Origin: Minisyncoccota bacterium
GTDB lineage: Bacteria; Patescibacteriota; Minisyncoccia; Phycocordibacterales; UBA9973
Direction: 5' to 3'
Assembly (NCBI GenBank): GCA_041664605.1
Contig: JBAYKO010000002.1
Coordinates: 7,453 to 71,452, forward strand
DNA length: 64,000 nt
The position numbers and the translations under genes were made by a program. Numbering within the stretch: the stretch's first letter is position 1; each line of letters begins with the position of its first letter. This document shows positions 1,326-26,696 of the stretch, in pieces. Under the pieces are notes generated by a model. That model saw only the letters and a program-made list of their open reading frames with translations, ran no database searches and had not been told where the DNA came from.

Positions 1326-1329
1326 GGTT

Positions 1330-3534: not shown

Positions 3535-3540
3535 AAAAAT

Positions 3541-3571
3541 TAGGTTCTAGCTTCTAGGGGCTAGGTTCTAG
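3541..3571 (-). repeat. (CTAGAAC)n-type heptad repeat array directly 5' of the rpsZ start codon
   Basis: Minus-sense ACTAGAACCTAGCCCCTAGAAGCTAGAACCTAATTTTTATG. The same heptad array recurs at 19989-20022, 44041-44071, 50771-50800, 55329-55355, 54181-54220 and 61253-61283. Confidence 0.7.
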
Positions 3572-3687
3572 TAAATCAAGATATCTCATTCTTTTTCTTA
3601 AATACTTCAATAAATACGAGTACTTAAGGAGAAGAACGGATCTTTAACCTACCAAACTATATTAGCAAATTTAAAAATGTTGTCAAA

Positions 3688-3855
3688 CCCATTTTAAAAC
3701 CATCAGAAAAGGACGGTCCTTTTCTGATTAAAAAGCAAGTTTGAGAGCAAGTCAATTTTAAAACCCTTCGGGAAGGACCGTTCTTCCCGGATTCTGCGAA
3801 AGTCTTGCTTTCGCAGAATCAACCCATTTTAAAACCCCCTAAATAGGGGGTTTTA
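3688..3855 (-). repeat. Three tandem ~65-70-bp units, each CCCATTTTAAAACC followed by a GC-stem hairpin; the last hairpin is a T-tailed intrinsic terminator
   Basis: CCCATTTTAAAACC at 3688, 3753 and 3823. Hairpins are tcagaaaaggacggtccttttctga, ttcgggaaggaccgttcttcccgg, attctgcgaaagtcttgctttcgcagaat and aaaaccccctaaatagggggtttt. Confidence 0.6.
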
Positions 3856-3866
3856 TTAAAAAACTT

Positions 3867-4697
3867 TTATTTATTCTCGAACTTACGTTCCTTGGTTTCA
3901 GGATCAGTTACTATTCCTCTCTTAAAAACAATCGGACCAACTTTTTCAATTTGTTCTTCTTTTTTATTTTCAATTAAACGATTAAATGGACTATTATCTT
4001 TATTTCTTTGATCGTATCCAATCTTGATAATTTGTTCTTCCATTCTATTAAAAGCAAGTAAAAGATGTATTTTTCTTTCTTTTGGTGACATTTCTTCAAA
4101 ATTTTCATTATGACGTCCCCACCATTCACCTTTATTGTTTGGTTTTGTACCAAAATAACTCCCATTAATCAATTCATATGAGCAATTAGGGCAAATGGTA
4201 GTCTCATAATAAAGTGGTTCCAAACAATTAGAACAAATATTATTTTTTACTTGAAATCCACCATGATACACCCAATTATCTTTAAGGGAGCAAGCAAAAA
4301 TACCGAATTTTTGATGTTTAAACAAGCGACCAGTTTTTATTTTATTTCTTTCACTTCCATAAAGAGTTAAGCAAAATTCCCGTCCCTCTTGTGCTATTTC
4401 TTTTATTTTCTCAATTTCTTTTCTTTCAGAATTGTTTTCTACATCATTTGCTGTGATTGTAATAAATCGGGCAAAATGATAGGCATTCAAAAGATATTTT
4501 CTTTCTTTTGCATACCCATAAAGACTTTTAATCTTAAAGAAAGAATTTTTTTGACGCTCTATATGAGCTTTAAAACTTTTATCAAGATTTGGGAAAAATT
4601 CCGGACCACTTGGATAATGCCTATAAATAAAGAGTGTTTTCCTTATTTCATCTATGTATGAATTCATTAACGTCTGGGCAAATATTCTATTTTCCAT
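3867..4697 (-). CDS. Hypothetical 276-aa protein with a C-terminal CxxC...CxxC zinc ribbon, inserted between rpsZ and rplE
   Basis: Long ORF with CSNCLEPLYYETTICPNCSYE. It has its own upstream motif TTTACTTTTCT and a downstream terminator, and no recognisable family. Confidence 0.6.
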   Translation of the reverse strand: MENRIFAQTLMNSYIDEIRKTLFIYRHYPSGPEFFPNLDKSFKAHIERQKNSFFKIKSLYGYAKERKYLLNAYHFARFITITANDVENNSERKEIEKIKEIAQEGREFCLTLYGSERNKIKTGRLFKHQKFGIFACSLKDNWVYHGGFQVKNNICSNCLEPLYYETTICPNCSYELINGSYFGTKPNNKGEWWGRHNENFEEMSPKERKIHLLLAFNRMEEQIIKIGYDQRNKDNSPFNRLIENKKEEQIEKVGPIVFKRGIVTDPETKERKFENK

Positions 4698-4764
4698 TTC
4701 AATATATTTAATTTACTTTTCTACCCCAACCTTACCACAACCAAATAATTAGTCAATGAAAAAG

Positions 4765-4790
4765 AAAAGCGGCCATTATTGGCCGCTTTT
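4765..4790 (-). terminator. Intrinsic terminator (aaaagcggccattattggccgctttt)
   Basis: GC stem flanked by A/T runs just downstream of the 4796..5269 stop. A degenerate copy lies at 5344-5371 after rplE. Confidence 0.6.
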
Positions 4791-4795
4791 TAACA

Positions 4796-5269
4796 TTAAT
4801 GCATATTTTGGAGAAGTTGATTGAGCGTTTTATCAATATCAGCAACAACGCTTTCTGCTGATTGTTCAAGTATTAAAGCTCTTTCTTCTGATTTCGCTAA
4901 TAATTTATTTTTCTTTCTTAAAGAAGAAGATTCGGTTGCTTTAGAAAGATATTTATTAATTTTCTTTACATCCTTCTTCATTCCTTTTACTTTTTCACTT
5001 AAACTATTAGCAAAGTCAATCATTTGATTAACCGCTTCTTTTTTCTCTATATCTGAATCAGATATTAATTCACTGTAATCTTTGCAAGCAACAACTAATT
5101 TCTTACAGGAATTAGCCGTTGTGTCCAAGCATAATTTTAATGCCTTAATATCCTCCTTTAAAGACCTAATTTCTTCATTAGTATTCTGGTACTGACTTTT
5201 TTTGGCTTGACCAAAGATGTTAACACTGACAACAATTGATAAAATCGCTAAAATTACTAGTTTTTTCAT
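4796..5269 (-). CDS. Hypothetical secreted/lipoprotein-like coiled-coil protein (157 aa), inserted in the spc operon
   Basis: N-terminal signal peptide MKKLVILAILSIVVSVNIFG; the rest is charged and coiled-coil. Confidence 0.55.
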   Translation of the reverse strand: MKKLVILAILSIVVSVNIFGQAKKSQYQNTNEEIRSLKEDIKALKLCLDTTANSCKKLVVACKDYSELISDSDIEKKEAVNQMIDFANSLSEKVKGMKKDVKKINKYLSKATESSSLRKKNKLLAKSEERALILEQSAESVVADIDKTLNQLLQNMH

Positions 5270-5401
5270 TTTTACTGATTTAATGTTCTGTTTGTTTTAT
5301 CTAGTAAACATAATATCATTAAAAATATATTAGTCAAGCCAATTAAAAAACAGCCCTTATGGCCGTTTTTTACTTTACAAACTTTATAACTTTCTACTTT
5401 T

Positions 5402-6267: not shown

Positions 6268-6315
6268 GATTGATTTTTACTTTATAACTTTATGAACTTT
6301 CTACTTTATAACTTA

Positions 6316-8780: not shown

Positions 8781-9152
8781 TTATTTTTTCTTAGTGTCAG
8801 TTGTTGACTTTGCAGCCTTAGCAGCAGTTATTTCAGCTTCTTTTTTCTTTTGTTCTAATTCTTTCTGCATTTTACCTCCGTGTCTTAGGAATTTCTTTGT
8901 TGCAGAAAATTCTCCAAGTCTGTGACCTACCATATCTTCAGTGGCTAAAACATCAATAAAAAGCTTCCCATTATGAACAGCAAAAGTAAAACCAACCATT
9001 TCTGGTGATATCTGACAGGCTCTTGACCATGTCTTAATAGCGCCGGTTTCAAGCGGTTTTTTGCCTTCTATTTTCTTTAGAAGTCTTTCGTCTACGTATG
9101 GTCCTTTTTTAAGTGATCTTGTCATTTGTAAATTAAAATAAAATAAGCCCAC
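8781..9152 (-). CDS. rpsS: 30S ribosomal protein S19 with C-terminal extension
   Basis: 123 aa; [21 protein letters not shown] and the rest match uS19. Confidence 0.9.
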
Positions 9153-9247
9153 CTAATACGATTAGGTTATTTTGAGCCTGTTAGTTATCTTAACAAATTT
9201 AAAGATAGTGTCAACTTTATTTATATAAAAACCTATTAATATCTTGG

Positions 9248-9332
9248 GGGGTTGACCCGGCAGTAGAGCTTGGTGATGCTCTTTTAGAGCCGTGCTTTGC
9301 ACATCTCCAAGTCTCACTGCCGGGTTGACATA
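9248..9332. other. Long imperfect hairpin in the enlarged L2-S19 spacer (stem arms GTTGACCCGGCAGTAG / CACTGCCGGGTTGAC)
   Basis: Inverted repeat of about 15 bp; the ~50-nt interior holds a further GAGCTTGG/CCAAGTCTC pairing. A TTGACA...TAAGAT promoter-like sequence lies downstream on the minus strand. Confidence 0.5.
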
Positions 9333-9380
9333 AACTCCCAAAAGGTAATCTTGGGGTAGAAATTCTTTAAATTACATAAA

Positions 9381-9629
9381 ATGGTTGTAATTATTGGTGC
9401 CTTTCTTATCTGCGCAGCACTTTTGATAGTTTCTACACTAACAACTTTGTACTATTTAACACTGTTACATGACGCAGAAAAGAAGAAATTGGGAGAAGAA
9501 ATTATTAATTCTTACAAAAGAGAATACTCTTTTTTTAAGAACATATCTTGGATCTTTTTTTTCATCGCTGGAACATTAGCAGTTTGTCTATTTTTAATAG
9601 ATAAATTCCATATACTAGTGATAAAATAA
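9381..9629 (+). CDS. Small 82-aa two-TM membrane protein encoded antisense inside the L2-S19 spacer
   Basis: Two hydrophobic helices; a terminator follows directly (9645-9670). Confidence 0.45.
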   Translation: MVVIIGAFLICAALLIVSTLTTLYYLTLLHDAEKKKLGEEIINSYKREYSFFKNISWIFFFIAGTLAVCLFLIDKFHILVIK

Positions 9630-9644
9630 TAAAGTTCTTATTGT

Positions 9645-9670
9645 AAAAAACCGCCAAATGGCGGTTTTTT
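9645..9670. terminator. Bidirectional intrinsic terminator (aaaaaaccgccaaatggcggtttttt)
   Basis: Perfect GC stem with A/T runs on both sides, immediately after the rplB stop and the 9381..9629 stop. Confidence 0.7.
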
Positions 9671-9677
9671 ATTTAAT

Positions 9678-10896: not shown

Positions 10897-10929
10897 TGTT
10901 TTACTTTATAACTTTATGAACTTTCTACT

Positions 10930-12292: not shown

Positions 12293-12309
12293 ATATTTTT
12301 AAGGAATGC

Positions 12310-12470: not shown

Positions 12471-12896
12471 TTAAATCATTTTTACGTCAATATCAACCCC
12501 TGAAGGCAAACTTAAGTTTGTTAATGCTTCAATTGTTTTCTGAGACGGACTCATAATATCGATTAACCTTTTATGTATACGAATCTCAAATTGTTCTCGT
12601 GAGTTCTTATAAATAAAAGTTGATCTATTAACTGTATATTTTTTTATTTCAGTAGGAAGAGGTGTTGGACCAATAATTTTTGCATCATAACGCATTGCTG
12701 TATCCATAATCTGCTTTACTGAAGCATCGAGAATTTTACTCTCATATGCTCTAACTCTAATGCGTAATATTGCACCTTCTTCTTTCTTTGTTGCAGTAGC
12801 TACTTTTGAAACTTTTATTTTTTTTTCTTTCACTTCTTTTTCTTTATGTTCCTTCACTACTTTAGGTTTTGTTGTTTTTGTTTTTGTTGTAGGCAT
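12471..12896 (-). CDS. rpsJ: 30S ribosomal protein S10 with ~40-aa Lys-rich N-terminal extension
   Basis: Core RIRVRAYESKILDASVKQI and the rest match uS10. Confidence 0.88.
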   Translation of the reverse strand: MPTTKTKTTKPKVVKEHKEKEVKEKKIKVSKVATATKKEEGAILRIRVRAYESKILDASVKQIMDTAMRYDAKIIGPTPLPTEIKKYTVNRSTFIYKNSREQFEIRIHKRLIDIMSPSQKTIEALTNLSLPSGVDIDVKMI

Positions 12897-12935
12897 GACT
12901 TTATATTAAAGAACTATAAATTTCGCTTTTTTAAA

Positions 12936-14138
12936 TTAAGCAATAATTTTTGTTACAACTCCTGCTCCAACTGTCTTACCTCCTTCACGAATAGCAAAAT
13001 TCATTTGAGCTTCAAGTGCAATCGGTACAACTAATTTTACAGTGAAAGTTGCTGTATCTCCTGGCATAACCATTTCGGTTCCTGCTGCAAGAGTAACTTC
13101 TCCAGTAACGTCTGTTGTTCTGATATAGAATTGAGGCTTGTAACCTGTGAAAAACGGTGTGTGACGACCTCCTTCTTCTTTTTTCAAAATATAAACTTCT
13201 GCTTCAAAGTCTGTATGTGGAGTAACAGAACCAACTGCTGCTAAAACTTGTCCTCTAGTTAGGTCTTCTTTCTTTGTTCCTCTTAGAAGTATTCCAGCGT
13301 TATCTCCTGCCATACCTTCTTTTAGAGACTTATTGAACATTTCAATACCAGTAACAGTTGTTTTTACTGTTGGTTTAATACCAACAATTTCAACTTCTTC
13401 TCCAACCTTTACAATACCCCTTGCTATTTTACCAGTAGTAACTGTTCCTCTACCTTCAATTGAGAATATATCTTCAATAGGCATAAGGAAGGGTTTGTCG
13501 GTTTCTCTTACTGGAAGTGGAATCCAAGTATCGAGAGCATTAACAAGTTCCATAATCTTTTGTGACCATTCATTTGTCAAATCGTTTGATTCCAAAGCTT
13601 TAAGTGCTGAACCTTTTATAATAGGCGCACTTGCCCCGTCAAATCCTTGTTTTGTAAGAAGTTCTCTAACTTCTTCTTCAACTAGATCAATAAGTTCTTT
13701 ATCTTCAACCATATCGCACTTATTTAGAAAAACAATCATTTTTGGCACACCAACTTGTTTTGCAAGTAAAACGTGCTCTCTTGTTTGAGGCATAACTCCA
13801 TCAGTTGCTGCAATAACCAAAATAGCACCGTCCATTTGAGCAGCACCAGTGATCATATTTTTAATATAGTCAGCGTGCCCTGGAGCATCTATGTGAGCAT
13901 AGTGTCTAGTTGGAGTTTCATACTCAGAGTGGTGAAGAGCAATTGTAATTCCTCTTGCCTTTTCTTCTGGAGCATTATCGATTTTATCGACAGCTTCTAC
14001 TCTAGCGCCATAACCTTGAGCCTTTGCCATATCTAAGGTATGAGTGATCGCTGCTGTTAATGTTGTCTTACCGTGGTCAACGTGACCAATGGTTCCCACA
14101 TTTACGTGTGGTTTATCTCTTTTATATTCTTCTGCCAT
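12936..14138 (-). CDS. tuf: Elongation factor Tu
   Basis: 400 aa with [22 protein letters not shown] and NKCD motifs. Confidence 0.97.
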
Positions 14139-14317
14139 AAAATTTTTGAGCTAATAACTACAATTTAATAATCGAGAACTGAATACTAAATAATAACTAC
14201 TAGCTAATATTGATTAACTAATAAATACAAAAACACAATATGGATTAGATAATAGCTGAAATAAATAAAATAGTCAAATTTTTAGGGCTCTTTTTACTGA
14301 ATATCTTGTGGACAAGT

Positions 14318-14356
14318 AAATACCCGAGATTTTTACAAAAATCTCGGGTATTTTTT
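14318..14356 (-). terminator. Intrinsic terminator (acccgagatttttacaaaaatctcgggt + T run)
   Basis: Perfect inverted repeat followed by a T run; downstream of the 14420..14980 stop on the minus strand. Confidence 0.6.
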
Positions 14357-14419
14357 AAACCAAAAACCTTAAAACCTACCTCGGGATGATCCTTAGTTTA
14401 ATCAGTAAATATAGTTTAT

Positions 14420-14980
14420 CTATTGAAGCACAAGAGGAAATTCCAAAGTATCAGGAGTTGCCCCTGAAGGATCATTTTCAGTAAATACTACTTTCATTAG
14501 TGTTCCAGATTGAAGTCCAATACCGCCGTTATTAAAGATGACTGACGCGGTAAAAGGTACTGGCCCAAGTGTCATCCAGTTTGAAACAGGAATTAGATTA
14601 ATAATTCCTATTGGCCCCCAATTATTCCCATTTTGATAATAAAGTTGAGCTGTTCCCGCTTCTCCTTCAAACATGGTCCACCTACATCCTGTTGTTTGAT
14701 AATTTGTATTATCTACAACTCCATTAAAAACTACTGGTACGTTTGAGGAAATTGTAGAATTTGGAACAGGAGAATTTATTGTAAAACCACAATTACTAAG
14801 AGTTTGAATACCCCCTTGGTCTTTATTATCTAAATTATTATCTGTATTGAGAACATTATCCTTGTCTTGTGCTAATTTATCAGAATTTTTACCTGAAAAA
14901 TACATTACTCCACCGACAACTAACAATGCTACAACTACTAAAACTATTAAAATTGGCGCAAAACCTTTATTTTTATTCAT
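14420..14980 (-). CDS. Hypothetical membrane-anchored or secreted protein (186 aa) between tuf and fusA
   Basis: N-terminus MNKNKGFAPILIVLVVVALLVVGG is a signal anchor, faintly prepilin-like but with no Glu at +5; the rest is a Gly/Asn-rich beta domain. Confidence 0.5.
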   Translation of the reverse strand: MNKNKGFAPILIVLVVVALLVVGGVMYFSGKNSDKLAQDKDNVLNTDNNLDNKDQGGIQTLSNCGFTINSPVPNSTISSNVPVVFNGVVDNTNYQTTGCRWTMFEGEAGTAQLYYQNGNNWGPIGIINLIPVSNWMTLGPVPFTASVIFNNGGIGLQSGTLMKVVFTENDPSGATPDTLEFPLVLQ

Positions 14981-15186
14981 ATATTTTACTTTCAGACCAA
15001 GACTAATAAGCCTATGGTTTAAATAAATTATTAATACTTAAATTATAACACCCTGTAGTAGATTTTAGTAGTGCATTAAAAATGCGTCCCAATTTTGATC
15101 GGGACATTACTAAAATTCACTACGGAGTAAAATTAAAAACAGAAAACCCCCCGACCTGAGCCGGAGGGTTTTTAATAAAAATAGCA

Positions 15187-15570
15187 TTATATTATTTCAT
15201 GCAAAGAACACTTAGCTTCTCCCTTCATTGGGATTTCGTCATTAGTAATCCATTTCCCTGTATAACCACAAGGAAAACGACCAAAATTCTTTGAAAGAAA
15301 ATCATATTTTACTTCATGATCCGTCTTCCCAAAAATACCGTCAAGGTATTTTTTAGAAAAAGACATTCCTGTATCAGATATAGTTCCTTTGATCATAGCA
15401 GAACCATAAGAATCTTCGATTTGCCCACTGAAAGGATTTCCATCTTTTTGTTTTGTTACGAAATCGACATTTATAGTCCCGACAAAAAGTCCTTTTTTTA
15501 TCTTGTTAAATGTCTCGGAATAAACATCTTTAGGATCATAAAATGACCCTATAATTAGGAATTCGGTCAT
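15187..15570 (-). CDS. Hypothetical protein (127 aa)
   Basis: ORF with its own promoter-like upstream module (15575-15668) and a downstream terminator (15145-15178). Confidence 0.5.
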   Translation of the reverse strand: MTEFLIIGSFYDPKDVYSETFNKIKKGLFVGTINVDFVTKQKDGNPFSGQIEDSYGSAMIKGTISDTGMSFSKKYLDGIFGKTDHEVKYDFLSKNFGRFPCGYTGKWITNDEIPMKGEAKCSLHEII

Positions 15571-15690
15571 ATTTCAATTATTTAATTTACTTTTCTGATT
15601 TAACATTACCATATAAATTTTAAATTGCAATATAAAATTCAAAAACCCCCGGGTTGGGGGTTTTTAGAAAGAACATTGTAGCCGGATTGA

Positions 15691-16158
15691 TTAATAATCA
15701 ATGAAACTAGCGAGAGCTTTTTTCATAGACAATTCCGCCCCTTTTTTGAAAATTGTTTTACTACCATCAGTTAAAACTTCTGCCTTCCCTGATGCGGTAA
15801 CATAATCTTCCCGATCTTTAACAAGAATATTTGTAGTAAAAATATCCCCTGAATCATCTTTTGAAATTAAAAGATGAAAGGTATCCTTGCCCAAAATTCT
15901 TATGTCATCATAACATTGATTAATGCTTATGAGGCCACAAAATTCAATTTTCATTGAGTCGGATTCTTTTGCAAAGCTATCCAGTGAACAAAGTTGCGGG
16001 ATACTGTGACTTTCCACTTTGGTGTACTCGCCATTAGAAAAAATGTAAATACCGGGTTTTAAATTCAAATTTAGAATAAAGGTTGTGGCAATACAACCAA
16101 GAATAATACCCCCAGCAAAAATGGTACCAACAATGCCTGATTTAAGTAATCTTTTCAT
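15691..16158 (-). CDS. Hypothetical N-terminally anchored membrane protein (155 aa)
   Basis: TM helix near the N-terminus; preceded by a consensus promoter (see 16195-16228). Confidence 0.5.
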   Translation of the reverse strand: MKRLLKSGIVGTIFAGGIILGCIATTFILNLNLKPGIYIFSNGEYTKVESHSIPQLCSLDSFAKESDSMKIEFCGLISINQCYDDIRILGKDTFHLLISKDDSGDIFTTNILVKDREDYVTASGKAEVLTDGSKTIFKKGAELSMKKALASFIDY

Positions 16159-16194
16159 GAGTTAAAAATTTAAGGTTCTTATTTAGTTATCTTC

Positions 16195-16228
16195 CACAAT
16201 TATAGCATTTTGAGTTTTAAATGTCAAT
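16195..16228 (-). promoter_or_regulatory. Consensus sigma70-type promoter (TTGACA-17-TATAAT) for gene 15691..16158; duplicated module at 50170-50205
   Basis: Minus sense: ATTGACATTTAAAACTCAAAATGCTATAATTGTG. -35 TTGACA at 16222-16227 and -10 TATAAT at 16199-16204, spaced 17 nt. It is ~90% identical to 50170-50205. Confidence 0.7.
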
Positions 16229-16322
16229 AGATAAATTTCTTTAATAAACCCTTATTTTTAGACCTAAAATTCAAAAACCCCTCCGACGCAAGGTCGGAGG
16301 GGTTTTCATTAAAGAGCATTAA

Positions 16323-16976
16323 TCAATCAGGATTAGGCATAGCTAATCTTTGAACAGAAACATCTAGTGTTCCAAAACTTACTGCTTCTCTTAAAAAACT
16401 GAGAGCAGCATTAAGTTTTTTTTCATTTTTTATTTTAAAATCAGCTATTTGATCTCCTGTATCTTGTAAATTAATAATTGATTCTAAAATTTTTATTTTT
16501 AATTCACCTTTTGCCAAACAAAGACTTAGGTGCCATATTTCATAAAATGTCCCATTATTATCTCTTTTTGATCGCAAGCACTCAAATCCATAGGACTCAA
16601 GCTTTTCAACATTCTCTCTGTACCCTTCTTTTGTGTAGTAATGTCCACAAAGATGTTGAATATCAATGATTGGAGAATATAATGACGCATTATTATCAAA
16701 AATAATCTCATTAAATGGAAGACGGACTTGAGACATTTGCCCATCAGTTGCTTCTCTCCAAAAAAGGAGCATTTTATCGTCCGTTTTTGGGTCTGGTAAT
16801 TTTTCCCAAACCGGGACTGCATCCAGTCTGCCGTTCACAACCCTGATGAAATAGTTGCCGGTCCAAAGTGACCCCATAATTTTTTCATACTCTTCCGTTG
16901 TGAATCCTTTTATTGAAATACCTGGATACCCATAGGATTGAACATGGATTTTCTGTTCTTCTTTATTGTCTGCCAT
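16323..16976 (-). CDS. Hypothetical protein (217 aa)
   Basis: Long ORF. Its upstream ~95 bp (16977-17068) is nearly identical to 15571-15668. Confidence 0.5.
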   Translation of the reverse strand: MADNKEEQKIHVQSYGYPGISIKGFTTEEYEKIMGSLWTGNYFIRVVNGRLDAVPVWEKLPDPKTDDKMLLFWREATDGQMSQVRLPFNEIIFDNNASLYSPIIDIQHLCGHYYTKEGYRENVEKLESYGFECLRSKRDNNGTFYEIWHLSLCLAKGELKIKILESIINLQDTGDQIADFKIKNEKKLNAALSFLREAVSFGTLDVSVQRLAMPNPD

Positions 16977-17342
16977 ATAAAATCAATTTAATTTACTTTT
17001 CTGCTTTAACATTACCATAGAGATTCTAAATTGCAATACAAAATTTAAAAACCCCCGAATGGGGGTTTAATTAACGCTTTTTCTTTTTTTTAAAATTTTT
17101 AGACAGCTTTTGCAATTAACAGGTAAAACCTTGTCATTAGAATGACCCTTTAAAAAATATTTTTTATTTGGGTTTAATCCACACAAAGTGTTTGCATAAA
17201 GTAAATTCTTTTTAGTTGTGTGAATTTTCATTTTTTCAATATTTTTTACTTTTCTGATTTAAAACTAGCATGGGAAGAAAAAATTGACAATCATTTTTGA
17301 AAGATATAATGTAAAAATAGAAAAGTTTTTAAATTTATCCTC

Positions 17343-17639
17343 ATGCCATCAAAAAGAAAATATGCTATGGTTTATTACCTTGATTTCAAAAAAGATTTGA
17401 CTGAAATGAAAGTTGATCTTGTCTTATGTAATACAGGAGGCGACCCTGACACAACATATATTTATATCCGCGAAAATGATCTTATTAGTGAAAAAAAGGT
17501 AAAAAAAATCCGCGGAGTAAATGAAATTATAAGAAACAAAAAAGAAGATACTTTTAAAGTATTTAAAACTTTTTTTTCTTTTAACCAAATTATGGATAAA
17601 TTGCTCAACTTAAATGTTGACGCAAATATGGATTTCTAA
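17343..17639 (+). CDS. Hypothetical protein (98 aa)
   Basis: ORF with a terminator-like hairpin downstream (17687-17714). Confidence 0.4.
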   Translation: MPSKRKYAMVYYLDFKKDLTEMKVDLVLCNTGGDPDTTYIYIRENDLISEKKVKKIRGVNEIIRNKKEDTFKVFKTFFSFNQIMDKLLNLNVDANMDF

Positions 17640-17827
17640 AAAATTCCCGCACAAAGCGGGAATTTTAGTATCTGATAAAGAAAAAATCCTCCGACATGGG
17701 TCGGAGGATTTTTTCTATTTATGATTTTATTTTCTACTTTATAATCCCAGAAGTAAAATTTTAAATCGAATGTACTTAAAATTTACTACGGGACATGCTT
17801 TATGAACTTTCTACTTTACAACTTGCC

Positions 17828-19981
17828 CTATTTTCTTGAAGCAATAATTGTGTCCGCAACGTTTGTAGGCACAACATCGTATCTTAAAAATTCCATAGTA
17901 AAACTGGCTCTTCCTTCAGTCATTGAACGAAGTCCTGTCATATAACCAAACATTTCTGAAAGAGGAACAACAGCATTTAAAACTTTACTCATTCCACGAT
18001 CTTCCATTCCTTCAATGAGTCCTCGTTTTGATGATAAGTTTCCAGTAATATCTCCCATGAATTTTTCTGGTGTAACAACTTCTACTTTCATCATTGGCTC
18101 CAAAATAACAGGTCTTGCTCGTCTACAAGCATCTTGCACCGCCATTGAAGATGCAATTTTGAAAGCCATTTCATTTGAGTCAACTTCGTGATAACTTCCA
18201 TCATAAAGTTCACAAGAAACATTAACCATTCTAAATCCTGCCATAACACCTCTATCTAATCCTTCTTTCAAACCTTTTTCAACAGCAGGAATATATTCTT
18301 GTGGAACAACTCCTCCCTTAATAGAATTAATGAATTCAAATGCACCAGATCTTTTTGTATTCTTAGGAAGTTTTTCAATTTCTTCCTTAGTAAGAATTTT
18401 CATCGGCTTAATTCTAATTCTAACGTGACCGTAGTTTCCGCGTCCACCTGACTGTTTAATATACTTGCCTTCTGCTTCAGATTCTCCTAAAATTGTTTCT
18501 CGGTAAGCAACCTGCGGTTTACCAACATTTGCATCAACAGTAAATTCTCTTTTCATTCGATCAACAATAATTTCCAAGTGTAATTCTCCCATTCCAGCAA
18601 TAATAGTTTCGCCAGTTTCTTGATCAGTTGTAACTTTGAAAGTTGGGTCTTCTTGAGCAAGTCTGTTCAAAGCCATTCCCATTTTTTCTTGGTCAGCTTT
18701 TGTTTTTGGTTCAATACGAAGGTTAATAACTGGTTCAGGGAAAACAATTCTATTTAATTCAACTGGATGATCTTCATCACAAAGAGTATCTGAAGTAATT
18801 GTATCTTTAAGACCAACAGCAGCTGCAATTTCCCCTGCAAAAACTTTTTTCACTTCTTCTCTATCGTTTGCATGCATTCTTAAAATTCTACCAATTCTTT
18901 CTTTGTTTTTTGTTCTTGGATTGTAAACATAAGAACCAGATTCAAGTGTTCCTGAATAAACTCTAAAGAAAATAATTTGCCCTACGAATGGGTCAGTAGC
19001 CACTTTGAAAGCTAGCGCAGAAAAAGGTTCTGAATCAGAAGCATTTCTTATCACCGGTGCATCATCGTGGTCTGGATCTGTCCCTTCTATTGGAGGAATA
19101 TCAAGTGGTGATGGTAAATAATCAACAACACCATCGAGTACCAATTGCACACCTTTGTTTTTTAAAGCTGAGCCTGCATAAACTGGAAAAATTTCATTTG
19201 TAATTACCCCTTTTCTTAATAATTTTTTCAAAATTTCCATATCTGGAATTTTTCCTTCCAAATAATCATTCATTGTTTGGTCATCTTGTTCAACAATTTT
19301 TTCCATAAGTTCATTGTGATATTTTTTCGCCTCTTCAAGCATGTTTTCTGGAATTTCTTTTTCAATAACTTGATTTCCCATATCACCTTCAAAATAATAA
19401 GCTTTCATTTTCAAAAGATCTACAACTCCTTCGTGCTTTTCTTCAAGACCAATAGGAATTTGAACTCTTACTGCCTTTTTTGTAAGTCTGTCTAAAATAG
19501 TTTTGTAGGAATATTCAAAAGATGCACCTGTACGATCAAGTTTATTTATGAAACAAATTCTGGGAACCTTAGCTTCGTCAGCGTAACGCCAGTTGGTCTC
19601 TGATTGAGGTTCAACACCCGCAACTCCATCAAAAACAACAACAGCTCCATCGAGTACTCTTAAAGATCGCTTCACCTCTACAGTAAAATCAATGTGTCCT
19701 GGGGTATCTATAATATTAAAACGATGTTTTTTACTTTTATCTTTTAGATCAGCATAAGTCGGAGTCCAGAAGCAAGTAACAGCAGCTGAGGTAATTGTAA
19801 TACCCCTTTCGCGCTCTTGTTCCATCCAGTCGGTTGTAGTTTCTCCGTCATGAACTTCACCTATCTTGTGTGATACTCCGGTATAGAATAAAACACGCTC
19901 TGTGGTGGTGGTTTTTCCAGCATCAATGTGAGCAATAATTCCTATATTTCTAACTTTTTCTAAAGGGTAATCTCTTTCCAT
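17828..19981 (-). CDS. fusA: Elongation factor G
   Basis: 717 aa with [27 protein letters not shown] and the rest of EF-G. A heptad CTAGAAC array precedes the start. Confidence 0.96.
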
Positions 19982-19988
19982 GATAAAT

Positions 19989-20022
19989 TAGGTTCTAGTA
20001 GCTAGGTTCTAGTTTCTAGTGT
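19989..20022 (-). repeat. CTAGAAC heptad array directly 5' of the fusA ATG
   Basis: Minus sense: CACTAGAAACTAGAACCTAGCTACTAGAACCTAATTTATC-ATG. Confidence 0.7.
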
Positions 20023-20135
20023 AAATTAATTTTAAAAAGCGCTAATGCGCTAGAAATAATATACAACAAAGACGTTTTTTTTGCAAAGCAAAAGCCGGGC
20101 TATTCCCGGCTTTTAAAAAAGATCTACTACATTAT

Positions 20136-20423
20136 TTAAGACAAAATAATTTGTCCAAGAACAAGGCGTAAAGAGTTTGGAATACTCATTTGTTCATTTT
20201 TTATGAAATCTTTTATTCTGTCTTTGCACTTAAAGACATTTTTATCCAAAACTTTTACAGCAAAGCTTAGTGCCCTATGGTCTTCTTCCGACCTAAAATC
20301 TTTAGCAATGTTTGAATATTTTCTCATAAGATCAAAACAAAGATCTAATTTCCGGTTTCTTGCTTCATCCCCATCTTCTTTGTCTAGTCTTTTAATGGTT
20401 TTATCTATTTGTGCTATTTCCAT
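20136..20423 (-). CDS. Hypothetical protein (95 aa)
   Basis: ORF with the upstream TTTACTTTTCTG motif and a downstream terminator at 20088-20112. Confidence 0.45.
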   Translation of the reverse strand: MEIAQIDKTIKRLDKEDGDEARNRKLDLCFDLMRKYSNIAKDFRSEEDHRALSFAVKVLDKNVFKCKDRIKDFIKNEQMSIPNSLRLVLGQIILS

Positions 20424-20537
20424 AATGTCTTACTCAATTTACTTTTCTGCCCTAAGATTAATATTTTATTGGTATTTTGTCAAAACCATTCGACAGGCTC
20501 AGGGTAAGACAAAAGCCGGAATTATCCGGCTTTGAAG

Positions 20538-20789
20538 TTAATCAAAAACAATCTTTAATTGAAACGAGTCTCGAGAAAGTAGATTCCATCTATTAACCAT
20601 TTCGTATGGATCATTACCACTAATCGAATAACCGCATATATCGCAAGATATATATCCCTCATCAGGGGCACATCCATCATGTGTTAAATTTCTTGAACCA
20701 CACCTAGGGCAACCACGATAACCATTTTTATCTAGTATGGCACCAGAAAAGATAGCTTGAGCTAATTTTATTTGGTCATCATAGTTCAT
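20538..20789 (-). CDS. Small zinc-ribbon protein resembling Lar-family restriction alleviation proteins (83 aa)
   Basis: CPRCGSRNL...CDICGY...YEMVNRWN matches the Lar pattern CPFCG...C..CG...A.EAWN.R. Terminator downstream at 20507-20533. Confidence 0.35.
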   Translation of the reverse strand: MNYDDQIKLAQAIFSGAILDKNGYRGCPRCGSRNLTHDGCAPDEGYISCDICGYSISGNDPYEMVNRWNLLSRDSFQLKIVFD

Positions 20790-20928
20790 ATTATTAACTA
20801 TTAAATTTTTCTTCCTTTATCTTATATTTCTAGAGATATTTGTCAAAACCCGTAAATGAGCTCGGGGCAAATTAAAAACCGTTCCAACCTGAGTTGGAAC
20901 GGTTTTTAAAGAACAAAATTGAGAGAAA

Positions 20929-21444
20929 TTAATCATATAATTTTTCAAAGGCTGGAATCCAATAATTTTTTAAAAATCGTGCATAATAACCACAGAGCCC
21001 ACGGTCAAAAGCTATGTATTCTTTTTTTACTCCGTACAAAGTACAAAGCAAAAATGAAGTAATATTTGCCTTAGAACGATTACTACGGGCCGGATCGTTT
21101 TCAAAACTCTTACAGGCCATGCGGTAACTTTCGGCCAATATTAAAATCACGGCTGATTCTTCTACTTTTTTTAAAGAAAGATGAAGAGCATTAAAATCAA
21201 CATTATAGTTAAGATTGAAAACTTTAAGATGGTGTTCTTCTGGGCCCGGATCATAAGAACCAATAAATAACCCTTGAGCCAATAATTCCCTTTTTACTAA
21301 AGACAGTTTTTTGCGGTAAACACTGTTTATGTAAGAAGTGTAACTTTTAAGACATTCTCCTGCTTTTTTCTTGCCATGAGACAAAACTTTTACTTTATTG
21401 TTTTCAAAAATATCAAACAATTTGTCGGTAGTTTCAGTAGCCAT
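20929..21444 (-). CDS. Hypothetical protein (171 aa)
   Basis: ORF between rpsG and fusA; terminator at 20877-20906. Confidence 0.45.
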   Translation of the reverse strand: MATETTDKLFDIFENNKVKVLSHGKKKAGECLKSYTSYINSVYRKKLSLVKRELLAQGLFIGSYDPGPEEHHLKVFNLNYNVDFNALHLSLKKVEESAVILILAESYRMACKSFENDPARSNRSKANITSFLLCTLYGVKKEYIAFDRGLCGYYARFLKNYWIPAFEKLYD

Positions 21445-21521
21445 TTAATTAATATTTATCAAATTTCAAATCTATCTACACATTACATCATAGATATATT
21501 TTGTCAATATTTTAAAAAATC

Positions 21522-21558
21522 CCCCACCAGAGGCGTGTCGGCCTTTGCGGGGGATTTT
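21522..21558 (-). terminator. Intrinsic terminator after rpsG (aaaaaatcccccaccagaggcgtgtcggcctttgcgggggattttt)
   Basis: GC stem GGGGGATT/AATCCCCC with a T run; separates rpsG from the inserted genes. Confidence 0.6.
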
Positions 21559-21577
21559 TAAATTATTTAAATTAAGA

Positions 21578-22048
21578 TTACCAAGCAAAGTGAGCGAATG
21601 CTTTGTTGGCTTCAGCCATTTTATGAGTATCGTCTCTTTTCTTAATAGCTGCTCCTTCGTTTTTACTTGCTAGGATTAATTCATCTGCAATTCTTTTATC
21701 CATTGATAAACCCTTTTTTGCTCTAGCTGCGGCAATAATCCATCTCATTGAAAGAGTAAGTCTTCTTTCTGGTCTTACTTCTTTTGGAATTTGATAGTTA
21801 GCACCTCCAACTCTTTTTGTTCTTACTTCAAGTAAAGGACCAACATTTTTTATGGCTAAATCAAAAACCTCAAGAGGATTTGGATTTCCTGTTTTTTCTT
21901 TTATTATTTCAAATGCTTGATAAACTGCTTTTCTAGCGGCATTCTTTTTTCCTGACCACATTAAGCAATTTATAAACTTAGATAATTTTTGTGAATTATA
22001 AACTAAGTCTGGCTGGGCGATATTTCTATTTTTTACTTTTCTTCTCAT
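21578..22048 (-). CDS. rpsG: 30S ribosomal protein S7
   Basis: 156 aa MRRKVKNRNIAQPD..., uS7. Confidence 0.92.
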   Translation of the reverse strand: MRRKVKNRNIAQPDLVYNSQKLSKFINCLMWSGKKNAARKAVYQAFEIIKEKTGNPNPLEVFDLAIKNVGPLLEVRTKRVGGANYQIPKEVRPERRLTLSMRWIIAAARAKKGLSMDKRIADELILASKNEGAAIKKRDDTHKMAEANKAFAHFAW

Positions 22049-22089
22049 TTTTTATTGTCCGTCACGCCAGCTATAAGCGTTAGGATTAA

Positions 22090-22515
22090 TTATTTTTTAT
22101 CTCCTTTCTTTGGTCTTTTTGCACCATAAGAACTTCTGCTTTGTCTTCTATTTTCAACTCCTGTAGTGTCCAAAACTCCTCTCACAATGTGATATCTTAC
22201 CCCGATTAGGTCTTTAACCCTTCCGCCTCTTAACATTACAACTGAGTGTTCTTGTAGATTGTGACCAATTCCTGGAATATACGCGGTAACCTCTTGTCCA
22301 TTTGTAAGACGAACTCTGGCAATCTTTCGAAGAGCTGAGTTAGGCTTTTTAGGAGTTGTTGTTGTAACTTTAATACACACACCTCTTTTGAATGGAGCAT
22401 TGTATTTTACTGGTCTATTTTTAATACTATTAAAACCGCTTGCAAGTGCAACCGCTTTAGATTTCTTTGAAACTTTCTTTCTTCCTTTTTTAATTAATTG
22501 ATTTACTGTTGGCAT
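22090..22515 (-). CDS. rpsL: 30S ribosomal protein S12
   Basis: 141 aa with [13 protein letters not shown]...[10 protein letters not shown], uS12, plus a short C-terminal extension. Confidence 0.95.
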
Positions 22516-26659: not shown

Positions 26660-26696
26660 CTAACTTTATAAACTTTTTACTTTATAACTTTATACT

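What the first reader, a model, noticed from the sequence alone, without database searches (positions are those of the whole stretch)
14139..21577. str operon (S12-S7-fusA-tuf) split by eight small, individually promoted and terminated genes, one Lar-like
Three ORFs (20136, 20538, 20929) lie between rpsG and fusA. Five more (14420, 15187, 15691, 16323, and 17343 on the plus strand) lie between fusA and tuf. Each has a promoter-like module and a GC-stem/T-run terminator. The 20538 product has the CxxC...CxxC...WN pattern of phage Lar restriction-alleviation proteins, and 14420 has a prepilin-like N-terminus. Insertions into this normally contiguous, highly expressed operon are unusual and suggest a permissive hotspot for acquired genes.
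Basis: partly seen in the sequence, partly recalled or inferred. Interest (0 to 1): 0.6.

Follow-up and report, generated by a model that had tools for sequence, protein, structure and literature searches.

The report
Accessory-gene hotspots inside a ribosomal operon
In this tiny uncultured (CPR/Paceibacteria) bacterium the classic S12-S7-EF-G-EF-Tu operon is cut into separate transcription units, and the two cuts hold nine small, separately switched genes of unknown function; related genomes carry completely different genes at exactly the same cuts, so these are fixed "landing sites" for accessory genes rather than a one-off oddity.

Summary
Each has a strong hairpin/T-run terminator and a sigma-70-like promoter. 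All score as coding. o217 belongs to a ≥129-member Patescibacteria family, o83 to a small Lar-like zinc-ribbon family, and o171 has one homolog. o127 has none in a word-indexed search.

In 80 relatives, insertions over 300 nt occur at only five junctions of the str-S10-spc cluster: rpsG|fusA, fusA|tuf, rpsJ|rplC, rplB|rpsS and rplE|rpsN. The other 18 junctions have almost none. Gap content differs in every genome and none matches the window ORFs, so the hotspot interpretation is supported and extended. The window also carries insertions at rplE|rpsN and rplB|rpsS.

Six of eleven inserted genes, and none of about 69 others, share a private leader, AGAAAAG..TAAAT. Two share a 100-nt terminator-promoter-leader module at 82% identity. 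Relatives have analogous private modules. This resembles T4 PeSL regulatory cassettes and MGE-free HGT hotspots.

No integrase, att repeats or phage genes were found. The prepilin reading is not supported. Gene functions remain unknown.

The parts
21578..22515 (-). rpsL-rpsG transcription unit (S12 at 22090-22515, S7 at 21578-22048). The two genes are 41 nt apart with no terminator between them.
   Evidence: (Pfam Ribosom_S12_S23, Ribosomal_S7)
21515..21559 (-). Intrinsic terminator after rpsG (dG -25.4). It forms the upstream edge of junction 1.
20873..21507 (-). Cassette o171. Promoter TTGACA-N16-TAATGT at 21507-21480, ORF 20929-21444 (171 aa), terminator 20873-20908 (dG -21.7). It has one homolog (50% identity) among 1.84 billion representatives.
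20512..20846 (-). Cassette o83. Promoter 20846-20819 (TTGACA-16-TAAGAT), ORF 20538-20789 (83 aa, four-Cys zinc ribbon with a WN motif, Lar-like), terminator 20512-20533.
20089..20483 (-). Cassette o95. Promoter 20483-20455, shared leader CAGAAAAGTAAA at 20438-20449, ORF 20136-20423 (95 aa), terminator 20089-20115 (dG -16.6).
17679..20086 (-). fusA as its own transcription unit. Promoter TTGCAA-17-TATATT at 20086-20058, a leader carrying CTAGAACCTA repeats, ORF 17828-19981, and a bidirectional terminator at 17679-17716 (dG -25.9).
17284..17716 (+). Cassette o98, on the opposite strand and convergent with fusA. Promoter 17284-17312, leader AGAAAAGT, ORF 17343-17639 (98 aa), terminators 17640-17666 and 17679-17716.
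17049..17290 (-). Promoter 17290-17262, leader CAGAAAAGTAAA at 17245-17256, ORF 17067-17231 (54 aa, Lys-rich, 3 Cys + 1 His), terminator 17049-17068. This is the weakest coding call (LLR 0.10, z 2.8).
16272..17068 (-). Cassette o217. A 100-nt terminator-promoter-leader module at 16969-17068 (-35 TTGCAA 17036-17031, -10 TAATGT 17014-17009, leader 16992-17003), ORF 16323-16976 (217 aa), terminator 16272-16308 (dG -26). It belongs to a ≥129-member Patescibacteria family with no Pfam domain and no structural match.
15640..16227 (-). Cassette o155. Consensus extended promoter TTGACA-17-TGcTATAAT at 16227-16199, ORF 15691-16158 (155 aa, N-terminal TM helix), terminator 15640-15666. The promoter-leader is 83% identical to 50125-50203, which lies upstream of an unrelated gene.
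15143..15662 (-). Cassette o127. Second copy of the 100-nt module at 15563-15662 (82% identical to 16969-17068; leader at 15586-15597), ORF 15187-15570 (127 aa, no homolog found), terminator 15143-15172 (dG -19.7).
14318..15070 (-). Cassette o186. Weak promoter candidate 15070-15042, ORF 14420-14980 (186 aa, N-terminal signal-anchor helix, best codon score of the set), perfect 17-nt palindromic terminator 14318-14353 (dG -20.2).
12471..14277 (-). tuf-rpsJ transcription unit. Promoter TTGACT-17-TATTAT at 14277-14249, tuf 12936-14138, rpsJ 12471-12896. The genes are 39 nt apart with no terminator between them.
3535..5401 (-). o157 is at 4796-5269 (signal peptide; promoter 5337-5310; terminator 4765-4790). 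o276 is at 3867-4697 (promoter 4756-4729; leader TAGAAAAGTAAATTAAAT, the same leader family; terminator 3832-3853).
9126..9677 (.). A 552-nt expansion at the rplB|rpsS junction. It holds the rplB terminator at 9643-9672, an antisense 82-aa two-TM ORF at 9381-9629(+), a long hairpin at about 9250-9340, and the rpsS promoter at 9214-9187.

Best explanation
The region is the str gene cluster of a Paceibacteria (Nomurabacteria-like) CPR bacterium, and the ancestral operon no longer behaves as one operon. It is divided into three independently promoted and terminated units: rpsL-rpsG, fusA and tuf-rpsJ. The two boundaries act as lineage-wide hotspots of accessory-gene turnover.

In this genome the boundaries hold nine monocistronic genes. 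Each is insulated by its own sigma-70-type promoter, a short unstructured A-rich leader without a Shine-Dalgarno sequence, and an intrinsic terminator. Insulation means the cassettes neither interrupt nor depend on ribosomal-gene transcription.

How it works:
- Shown: insertions are tolerated only at five specific junctions of the str-S10-spc cluster. In the window, the four expanded junctions carry a terminator and a promoter; the fifth, rpsJ|rplC, has a terminator-like hairpin after rpsJ. Everywhere else the genes stay a few bases apart.
- Shown: content at these junctions is different in every sampled genome and includes no integrase or transposase here.
- Inferred: turnover is driven by ordinary homologous recombination. 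It would use (a) the extremely conserved flanking genes (fusA, tuf, r-protein genes) as homology arms for incoming DNA, in an organism that carries a ComEC-type uptake gene 3 kb away, and (b) repeated, genome-private terminator-promoter-leader modules between cassettes. These modules could exchange, duplicate or delete cassettes in the manner of T4 PeSL elements.
- Inferred: six of the inserted genes share the AGAAAAG..TAAAT leader, which makes them a co-regulated or commonly derived set.

The biochemical roles of the nine proteins are unknown. They comprise two membrane-anchored or secreted proteins, one Lar-like zinc ribbon, one member of a widespread CPR family, and five near-ORFans.
For: Anatomy comes: ORFs, promoters, a terminator after every cassette, and none inside rpsL-rpsG or tuf-rpsJ.

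Coding status. One search shows in-frame codon LLR 0.10-0.40 against about -0.7 to -1.4 in the two shifted sense frames. The o217 family has ≥129 members with invariant residues. The o83 family has 10 members. o171 has one homolog.

Hotspot. Searches give junction-specific gap statistics. Among relatives with EF-G ≥66% identical, the fraction with gaps over 300 nt is:
- fusA|tuf: 24/26 (16/26 over 1 kb)
- rpsG|fusA: 15/31
- rpsJ|rplC: 9/23
- rplB|rpsS: 6/10
- rplE|rpsN: 2/3
- the other 18 junctions: 0, apart from single cases

Distant relatives are compact, so expansion is derived. Gap ORFs are not homologous between genomes or to the window ORFs. Their Pfam content is heterogeneous, with only one transposase in 123 ORFs.

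No mobility genes, phage families or defence families appear in the window cassettes. There are no core-gene remnants.

Modules. The segment 15563-15662 matches 16969-17068 at 82% over 100 nt, flanking unrelated ORFs (one search gives 89% over 84 nt). nhmmer finds exactly four copies, all within this region, in the window and 92 loci. The leader motif lies upstream of 6 of 11 inserted genes and 0 of 69 others (P = 1.5e-6). The o155 promoter-leader is reused upstream of an unrelated gene at 50 kb.

Analogous private modules occur in relatives' gaps: L003, L028, L008, L068, L083 and L030.

Recombination signature in relatives. The last 101 nt of fusA is duplicated 3.1 kb downstream in L022 (98% identity), and 73 nt is duplicated in L054 (96%).

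Homologs of o217 and o83 lie at unrelated chromosomal sites in other CPR genomes. The ComEC-like gene is at 25148-26659.
Against: No transcript data exist, so promoter and terminator function, and the loss of fusA-tuf co-transcription, are only predicted. Single promoter matches are at chance level in this AT-rich DNA.

The nearest relative has only 88% identical EF-G. Turnover is therefore demonstrated at genus/family depth, not within a population, and no strain-level variant could be retrieved.

No recombination event between modules is observed directly in this genome, and no duplicated flank is present in the window.

Composition is native-like. 'Acquired' therefore cannot be distinguished from local origin for o127, o155, o186, o95, o98 and o54.

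The module is absent from viral and metagenome collections, so it does not mark an external mobile pool.

The shared leader could simply reflect common descent by local duplication, without any present function.
Confidence: 0.7

Rival explanations
1. The intervening genes are ancestral, vertically inherited lineage-specific genes. They have diverged beyond recognition or been lost in relatives, and there is no hotspot and no acquisition.
For: Base composition and codon usage are close to the core genes. The promoters are of the same type as those of resident genes. No mobility genes are present.
Against: Gap length itself varies from 6-12 nt to over 7 kb between genomes with 79-88% identical EF-G. 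This is presence/absence, not only divergence. The content of relatives' gaps includes unrelated, well-annotated enzymes and giant surface proteins. Outgroups are compact. The o217 and o83 families occur at unrelated loci elsewhere.
Confidence: 0.12
2. The region is a remnant of a prophage or integrative element, or an anti-restriction/anti-defence island, that targeted the str operon. The Lar-like gene would betray a phage origin.
For: o83 is Lar-like by sub-threshold sequence matches and by top structural matches to phage Lar-family proteins. Arrays of small, individually promoted ORFans resemble phage early regions (PMC2839356). In relative L022 an insert is flanked by a duplicated fusA 3' end, as an att site would be.
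Against: No integrase, transposase, capsid, terminase or other PHROG hit was found apart from Lar. There were no PADLOC hits, no tblastn hit of o83 in 50,697 phage genomes, no flanking direct repeats or core-gene fragments in the window, and no compositional break. The o83 homologs sit among housekeeping genes in other CPR genomes. The module is absent from IMG/VR.
Confidence: 0.08
3. Some or all of the small ORFs are non-coding, and the gaps are filled with repeated regulatory or REP-like DNA and spurious ORFs.
For: Five ORFs were not searched in the big databases or gave nothing, and o127 has no homolog in 5.8 billion clusters. o54 has a weak coding score. In relative L030 the same junctions are occupied largely by a 120-nt repeat.
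Against: Every ORF scores positive in frame and negative in the two shifted sense frames and in two of the three antisense frames (z 2.8-7.3). Each fills the space between a promoter and a terminator almost exactly. Three have homologs under evident purifying selection. Two independent gene callers annotate them.
Confidence: 0.07
4. The arrangement is an assembly or binning chimera, with foreign fragments joined between ribosomal genes in a metagenome assembly.
For: The source is a MAG. Ribosomal regions are known trouble spots for MAG reconstruction (PMC9723686).
Against: The same arrangement is present in two assemblies: an ENA 25.5-kb contig and an NCBI 106.6-kb contig. Composition is uniform. 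Dozens of independent MAGs, including complete chromosomes (L019, OY969413), show insertions at the same junctions.
Confidence: 0.02

Closest known systems
[quoted passage not shown] 2017, PMC5635113)
   Same: An interval bounded by the same core genes carries different accessory genes in each genome. No integrase or transposase is present. The organism carries DNA-uptake machinery (ComEC). In relatives, duplicated flank ends are consistent with recombination at the core-gene edge.
   Different: Here the hotspots lie inside what is elsewhere a single essential operon (rpsG|fusA, fusA|tuf) and at three other fixed junctions of the ribosomal supercluster. Turnover is shown between genera or families, not within a species. 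Recombination in the flanks was not measured.
PeSL (promoter-early stem-loop) regulatory cassettes of T4-type phage hyperplastic regions (Arbiol et al. 2010, PMC2839356; Comeau et al. 2014, PMC4122927)
   Same: Repeated composite motifs combine a stem-loop terminator with a sigma-70-like promoter. They sit immediately upstream of small ORFans and are concentrated in the variable regions between conserved core blocks. Copies flank unrelated genes, so recombination between them could move or delete cassettes.
   Different: This is a cellular (CPR bacterial) chromosome, not a phage. The module also includes a conserved leader (AGAAAAG..TAAAT) and lacks a Shine-Dalgarno sequence. There are only 2 strong and 2-4 weaker copies in 64 kb, against about 50 per phage genome. 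Mini-circles and recombination products have not been observed.
[quoted passage not shown]
   Same: The colinear order of translation genes is conserved, with occasional multigene insertions at operon boundaries that have a terminator-promoter architecture.
   Different: In Proteobacteria the insertions are between operons (for example str|S10). Here they are within the str operon and within S10/spc, recur in most members of the lineage, and are hypervariable.
SAR11 hypervariable region HVR2 between the 23S and 5S rRNA genes (Wilhelm et al. 2007, PMC2217521)
   Same: A streamlined, small-genome bacterium places a hypervariable island inside a normally contiguous, highly expressed translation-machinery operon.
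   Different: HVR2 is 48 kb and is dominated by cell-surface polysaccharide genes. Here the islands are 0.5-9 kb of mostly small unknown genes, at protein-gene junctions.
Lar restriction-alleviation family (Pfam PF14354, TIGR03655)
   Same: o83 and its 9 homologs have a CxxC...CxxC zinc ribbon followed by a helix with a W-N motif. PF14354 is the best Pfam match for all ten. The top structural neighbours are phage Lar-family proteins.
   Different: Scores are below both curated cut-offs. The gene is chromosomal in CPR bacteria, not in a prophage. There is an extra conserved N-terminal helix. No functional evidence exists.

Membership tests
Lar restriction-alleviation family (PF14354 / TIGR03655) | Score at or above the curated family cut-off | tested here: not met
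   PF14354 gives 23.0 bits against 28.6. TIGR03655 gives 19.2 against 39.6. All 10 homologs hit PF14354 as their best family, but the best E-value is only 2.6e-5.
Lar restriction-alleviation family (PF14354 / TIGR03655) | Four-Cys zinc ribbon followed by a conserved W-N motif | tested here: met
   C27, C30, C49, C52, W68 and N69 are invariant in the 10-member alignment.
Lar restriction-alleviation family (PF14354 / TIGR03655) | Fold similarity to Lar-family proteins | tested here: inconclusive
   The top BFVD hits are Lar-family proteins (E 5e-4, TM 0.57-0.67 on the target, rmsd 2.1-3.0 over about 50 residues). The query model has a mean pLDDT of only 58.7.
Lar restriction-alleviation family (PF14354 / TIGR03655) | Alleviates type I restriction; encoded by a (pro)phage | not testable with these tools
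   There is no phage context in the window or in homolog loci. Function needs an experiment.
Type IV prepilin / pseudopilin (for o186) | N-terminal methylation motif matching PF07963 / TIGR02532 | tested here: not met
   Neither library gave a match, even at E ≤ 1 for Pfam and E ≤ 0.1 for NCBIfam.
Type IV prepilin / pseudopilin (for o186) | Gly at -1, Phe/Met at +1, Glu at +5, then a hydrophobic helix | tested here: not met
   The sequence is MNKNKG|FAPILIVLVVVALLVVGG. G-1, F+1 and the helix are present, but +5 is Leu, not Glu.
PeSL-like mobile regulatory cassette | Repeated composite motif of a sigma-70-like promoter plus a stem-loop terminator | tested here: met
   15563-15662 and 16969-17068 are 82% identical over 100 nt, covering hairpin, T-run, -35, -10 and leader. 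Weaker copies lie at 17236-17286 and 20429-20479.
PeSL-like mobile regulatory cassette | Located upstream of ORFans and concentrated in variable regions between conserved core genes | tested here: met
   All four nhmmer hits lie in the two str junctions. The leader motif is upstream of 6 of 11 inserted genes and 0 of 69 others (P = 1.5e-6).
PeSL-like mobile regulatory cassette | Recombination between copies produces insertions, deletions, replacements or mini-circles | not testable with these tools
   No sufficiently close genome or read data are available. There is only indirect support: analogous private repeats in relatives' gaps.
PeSL-like mobile regulatory cassette | Promoter and terminator activities demonstrated | not testable with these tools
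   Only sequence predictions are available.
MGE-free HGT hotspot (sensu Oliveira et al. 2017) | The same pair of flanking core genes bounds different accessory genes in different genomes | tested here: met
MGE-free HGT hotspot (sensu Oliveira et al. 2017) | No integrase, transposase, prophage or conjugative genes in the spot | tested here: met
   Pfam, PHROGs, PADLOC and NCBIfam scans of all window cassettes found none. Relatives have 1 IS200 transposase among 123 gap ORFs.
MGE-free HGT hotspot (sensu Oliveira et al. 2017) | Excess accessory genes relative to other intervals, measured within a species or clade pangenome | tested here: inconclusive
   There is a clear excess relative to the 18 other junctions of the ribosomal cluster. 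However, the comparison is across genera, and the rest of the chromosome was not sampled.
MGE-free HGT hotspot (sensu Oliveira et al. 2017) | Elevated homologous recombination in the flanking core genes | not tested
   This would need population genomes. The only hints are duplicated fusA 3' ends in L022 and L054.
Integrative element / prophage inserted at a gene 3' end | Integrase plus flanking att direct repeats (often a duplicated gene end) | tested here: not met
   No integrase was found. There is no duplicated rpsG, fusA or tuf fragment in the window gaps, and no long flanking direct repeats.

The most novel reading that the evidence does not exclude
Paceibacteria (CPR) chromosomes may use a PeSL-like system that until now is known only from T4-type phages. 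Genome-private, portable terminator-promoter-leader modules would capture and shuffle single-gene cassettes at a handful of fixed, insulated junctions inside the ribosomal supercluster. The shared AGAAAAG..TAAAT leader would define a regulon of fast-turnover accessory genes, possibly host-interaction or anti-defence proteins of these episymbionts. These genes would be deliberately parked next to the most conserved and most recombinogenic genes of the genome, so that they can be exchanged between diverged lineages by transformation.
Probability: 0.2. Interest if true: 0.7.

Novelty: new variant of a known kind. Interest (0 to 1): 0.45.

Why it matters
The str-S10-spc cluster is the textbook example of gene order frozen by selection. 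It is also the locus most used to bin, place and quality-check CPR genomes.

Three consequences follow if a whole CPR lineage tolerates, and keeps refilling, five precise junctions inside this cluster.
- It maps where the transcription-unit boundaries of these uncultured organisms lie.
- It identifies easily located sites where lineage-specific accessory genes accumulate. These are candidates for episymbiont-host interaction or anti-defence functions.
- It offers natural "safe-harbour" sites with ready-made promoter/terminator parts for future genetic work.

The repeated regulatory modules would extend the PeSL mechanism from phages to cellular genomes, if their recombination is confirmed.

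There is also a practical point. Variable inserts within ribosomal contigs can break assemblies and confuse synteny-based marker extraction.

Tried and rejected
1. Function assignment. Pfam, PHROGs, PADLOC and NCBIfam scans of all nine ORFs (NCBIfam also o276) gave nothing above threshold; o157 and o276 gave no Pfam match.
3. Phage origin. There was no tblastn hit of o83 in INPHARED phages. The module pattern is absent from IMG/VR. The single metagenome hit is a chance match in an AT-rich eukaryote-like contig.
4. Rfam and tRNA scans found no RNA family or tRNA in the region, so this is not a tRNA-targeted island or a known ribosomal leader.
5. No conserved RNA structure was found in the shared leader.
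6. No core-gene remnants or att-like duplications were found in the window gaps.
7. Strain-level variants. Exact-protein look-ups of EF-G, S12 and EF-Tu returned only the same contig, a 2.3-kb fragment, or nothing.
8. The antisense 110-aa ORF at 20203-20535(+) was rejected in favour of o95, on codon score and on promoter, leader and terminator placement.
9. Literature searches found no prior description of these junction-specific insertions in CPR. Absence from the held library is not proof of novelty.

Full report
WHAT IS THERE

The window is a low-GC (about 32%) segment of an uncultured Paceibacteria/Nomurabacteria-type CPR bacterium. The same sequence exists as ENA contig k141_23205 and as a 106.6-kb NCBI MAG contig with locus tags WDK96_010xx. 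The closest relatives by EF-G are Candidatus Nomurabacteria MAGs at 79-88% identity.

On the minus strand the order is as follows:
- rpsL (22090-22515) and rpsG (21578-22048)
- three small ORFs: o171 (20929-21444), o83 (20538-20789), o95 (20136-20423)
- fusA (17828-19981)
- six small ORFs: o98 (17343-17639, plus strand), o54 (17067-17231), o217 (16323-16976), o155 (15691-16158), o127 (15187-15570), o186 (14420-14980)
- tuf (12936-14138), rpsJ, rplC and onward

It missed only the 54-aa o54.

SIGNALS

Every cassette ends in a GC-rich hairpin followed by a T-run, with dG from -10.8 to -26 kcal/mol. In all but o186, whose strong palindrome (14318-14353) lies about 67 nt from the stop, it lies within 0-40 nt of the stop codon. 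rpsG, fusA and o186 are also followed by strong terminators, and there is none between rpsL-rpsG or tuf-rpsJ.

Under one uniform criterion, terminator density is 1.1/kb in 14139-21577 against 0.39/kb elsewhere in the window.

Sigma-70-like hexamer pairs lie upstream of each ORF and upstream of fusA (20086-20058) and tuf (14277-14249). In this AT-rich DNA such matches are no commoner than in shuffled sequence (41 against 40.9). The case for promoters therefore rests on three other points:
- their collective score (mean 9.8 against a null of 8.0±1.0)
- their constant distance of 29-42 nt from the ATG in eight of the eleven
- their conservation as repeats

Almost no gene in the window has a Shine-Dalgarno sequence.

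The inference is that the classical str operon is three transcription units here (rpsL-rpsG, fusA, tuf-rpsJ) and that the nine small genes are monocistronic. This is a prediction. There is no transcript evidence.

ARE THE ORFS GENES?

With a codon model trained on 19 long ORFs outside the region, every small ORF scores positive in frame (0.10-0.40 bits/codon; core mean 0.39±0.09) and about -0.7 to -1.4 in the two shifted sense frames (the best antisense frame reaches -0.07 to +0.11). GC is native-like. GC3 is slightly raised (0.22-0.27 against 0.19±0.03), except for o186.

Homology results:
- o217 belongs to a family of at least 129 proteins of about 200 aa across Paceibacteria, Falkowbacteria and Moranbacteria, with many invariant residues and no Pfam domain. 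A confident AF2 model (pLDDT 80.5) has no significant neighbour in PDB or BFVD.
- o83 has nine homologs at 58-72% identity.
- o171 has a single 50%-identical homolog among 1.84 billion representatives.
- o127 has none in a word-indexed search.
- All nine are singletons at 90% identity and are annotated as hypothetical.
- o155 and o186 begin with a hydrophobic signal-anchor helix.

No Pfam, PHROG, PADLOC or NCBIfam family is reached above threshold.

Lar. o83 matches PF14354 at 23 bits (cut-off 28.6) and TIGR03655 at 19.2 bits (cut-off 39.6). All ten family members have PF14354 as their best hit. The four Cys residues and the W-N motif are invariant. A low-confidence model (pLDDT 58.7) finds phage Lar-family proteins as its top structural neighbours (E 5e-4). 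The gene is therefore Lar-like in fold and motif, but formal membership fails and function is untested. Its homologs lie among housekeeping genes of other CPR genomes, not in prophages. No phage genome carries a detectable relative.

Prepilin. The o186 N-terminus (KG|FAPIL...) lacks Glu+5 and matches no N-methylation model. It is better read as a plain signal anchor.

SYNTENY: THE KEY RESULT

I fetched the region around fusA from 80 species-level genomes and located 24 core genes from rpsL to rplO.

None of the nine window ORFs has a detectable homolog in any relative's region. ORFs in the relatives' gaps are almost never homologous to each other (7 small clusters among 186 ORFs).

Gap lengths vary widely:
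- rpsG|fusA ranges from 6 nt to 7.4 kb.
- fusA|tuf ranges from 88 nt to 9.3 kb, and tuf is absent within 10 kb in several genomes.

The pattern is strikingly junction-specific. Among relatives with EF-G ≥66% identical, gaps over 300 nt occur at:
- fusA|tuf in 24 of 26 (16 over 1 kb)
- rpsG|fusA in 15 of 31
- rpsJ|rplC in 9 of 23
- rplB|rpsS in 6 of 10
- rplE|rpsN in 2 of 3

The other 18 junctions show none, apart from isolated single cases. More distant CPR and Acidobacteria have compact junctions, so expansion is the derived state.

The window itself is expanded at four of the five junctions: 1596, 3689, 552 and 1867 nt.
- Between rplE and rpsN lie two more monocistronic unknown genes, o157 (4796-5269) and o276 (3867-4697), each with a promoter and a terminator.
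- The rplB|rpsS gap holds an antisense 82-aa two-TM ORF.

A Pfam survey of 123 gap ORFs from relatives shows a heterogeneous cargo: PG-binding and Ig-like surface proteins, NUDIX, pilin-like proteins, purine/pyrimidine/NAD enzymes and a toxin. There is only one transposase.

It extends from one genome to a lineage, and from 'the operon' to five exact junctions.

REPEATED REGULATORY MODULES

Within the island, 15563-15662 and 16969-17068 are 82% identical over 100 nt (one search gives 89% over 84 nt). This block comprises the preceding gene's terminator hairpin, the spacer, TTGCAA-N16-TGgTAATGT and the leader CAGAAAAGTAAATTAAAT up to the ATG. The flanking ORFs (o155/o127 against o54/o217) are unrelated.

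Weaker copies precede o54 and o95. A profile of the four copies finds nothing else in the 64-kb window or in 92 fetched loci.

The leader core AGAAAAG, about 25 nt before the ATG, occurs upstream of o95, o98, o54, o217, o127 and o276. That is six of eleven inserted genes and none of 69 others (P = 1.5e-6). It has no conserved secondary structure.

The o155 promoter-leader is 83% identical to 50125-50203, upstream of an unrelated 205-aa gene.

The module is absent from IMG/VR. In JGI metagenomes there is only one, chance, hit. The o217 homologs in other genomes have different upstream sequences. The modules are thus genome-private and do not travel with the genes.

Relatives show the same design with different sequences:
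- L003 has three copies of a terminator + TTGACA + (GA)n + leader module in its fusA|tuf gap.
- L028, L008, L068 and the o83-homolog locus L083 have similar repeats.
- L030 carries a 120-nt repeat immediately after the stops of rpsG, fusA, tuf and rpsJ.
- In L022 the last 101 nt of fusA is duplicated, at 98% identity and with its own stop codon, 3.1 kb downstream of the intact gene, bracketing the insert. L054 shows a 73-nt version.

This is the footprint expected if DNA enters by recombination at the conserved gene end. No such footprint exists in the window.

MECHANISM

Shown:
- fixed permissive junctions
- different cargo in every genome
- insulation of each gene by its own signals
- absence of mobility genes
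- repeated private terminator-promoter-leader modules that flank unrelated genes

Inferred:
1. The junctions are the lineage's transcription-unit boundaries. An insert carrying its own terminator there does not disturb ribosomal-gene stoichiometry, whereas insertions elsewhere are purged.
2. Cargo is exchanged by housekeeping homologous recombination using the very conserved flanks. This is the MGE-independent route proposed for many hotspots, especially in transformable bacteria (PMC5635113). A ComEC-like gene lies at 25148-26659.
3. Recombination between the repeated modules adds, deletes or reshuffles cassettes, as shown experimentally for PeSL elements in T4-type phages (PMC2839356, PMC4122927).
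4. The shared leader implies common regulation or common descent of six cassettes.

COMPARISON WITH WHAT IS KNOWN

Multigene insertions between operons of the translation supercluster are documented in Proteobacteria, together with the importance of terminator-promoter architecture at those boundaries (PMC6735719). A hypervariable island inside the rRNA operon is known in SAR11 (PMC2217521).

The differences here are:
- the location inside str, S10 and spc
- the recurrence at the same five junctions across a CPR lineage
- the single-gene insulated cassette style
- the PeSL-like repeated modules in a cellular genome

I found no description of this in the searchable literature. That is weak evidence of novelty. 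I rate the finding a new variant of a known kind (an MGE-free hotspot), of moderate interest.

LIMITS
- There are no expression data.
- The nearest genome is at 88% EF-G identity, so the tempo of turnover and the actual recombination breakpoints are unknown.
- The functions of all nine proteins remain unknown.

Noticed in passing
window 3535-5401: Two further inserted monocistronic genes lie between rplE and rpsN: o157 (4796-5269, signal peptide plus coiled-coil-like) and o276 (3867-4697, Cys-rich, no family). o276 carries the same TAGAAAAGTAAATTAAAT leader as the str cassettes. Three extra hairpins lie at 3700-3830, before the rpsN promoter.
   Followed up: partly
window 9126-9677: A 552-nt expansion lies between rplB and rpsS. 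It holds an antisense 82-aa two-TM ORF (9381-9629 +) and a long imperfect hairpin (about 9250-9340). The same junction is expanded in 6 of 10 close relatives.
   Followed up: partly
window 3541-3571, 19989-20012, 44040-44063, 50770-50779, 61266-61275: CTAGAACCTA occurs 9 times against 0.08 expected, often as tandem 7-mers. It lies directly upstream of the start codons of rpsN, fusA and the genes at 44075 and 50800. This is a genome-specific leader repeat of unknown role in an organism with almost no Shine-Dalgarno sequences.
   Followed up: partly
window 5388-5401, 6275-6314, 10899-10938, 17805-17818, 26671-26684, 29954-29967, 55141-55154: The element (GTTA)TAAAGTAGAAAGTT(CATAAAG) occurs 7 times against 0.13 expected. 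A 40-nt block is 100% identical upstream of rplX and rplW. Copies sit immediately after the fusA and rplE stop codons, at the upstream edge of two permissive junctions.
   Followed up: partly
window 16152-16228 vs 50125-50203: The consensus promoter plus leader of o155 is 83% identical, over about 85 nt and up to the ATG, to the region upstream of an unrelated 205-aa membrane-protein ORF (49514-50131). Promoter-leader modules are thus reused across the genome.
   Followed up: yes
window 58666-58773 vs 60476-60581: A 108-nt direct repeat (86% identity) lies next to tRNA genes and upstream of the ORFs 57932-58663 and 60181-60471. It contains a shared leader, caccagccccagtaaggggagattctc.
   Followed up: no
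L022 12037-12137 vs 15260-15360; L054 12028-12100 vs 12247-12319: In two relatives the 3' end of fusA is duplicated downstream of the intact gene (98% and 96% identity). In L022 the duplication brackets a 3.1-kb insert encoding an 827-aa protein, with no integrase. This is a footprint of insertion by recombination at the fusA end.
   Followed up: partly
L030 9103-9225, 12150-12268, 17335-17471, 18375-18506, 18921-19042: A ~120-nt REP/MITE-like repeat with an internal hairpin lies immediately after the stop codons of rpsG, fusA, tuf and rpsJ in one relative. These are exactly the permissive junctions.
   Followed up: partly
L055, L056, L057, L063, L064, L069, L073 (fusA-tuf gaps): A conserved ORF of about 93-194 aa with no Pfam hit occupies the roughly 500-nt fusA|tuf gap in Uhrbacteria, Falkowbacteria and other CPR relatives (cluster 2). 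It may be a lineage-conserved gene between fusA and tuf.
   Followed up: no
L005 3765-9782; L020 12317-20806; L022, L025, L038 gaps: One homologous family of very large proteins (450-2829 aa), probably surface proteins, recurs in the rpsG|fusA or fusA|tuf gaps of five different relatives. It is the only widely recurring cargo.
   Followed up: no
L083 8001-13600: The o83 homolog P0018 sits in a similar array of small, widely spaced unknown ORFs. The array has its own 115-nt intergenic repeat (9600-9714 and 10615-10729, 93% identity) and lies near a type I RM system and an integrase.
   Followed up: partly
window 894-2004: rpsE is followed directly by rplO with no L30 gene, the known CPR trait. 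The window also lacks Shine-Dalgarno motifs upstream of all but about 4 of 79 genes (39838, 40469, 43040, 51471).
   Followed up: no
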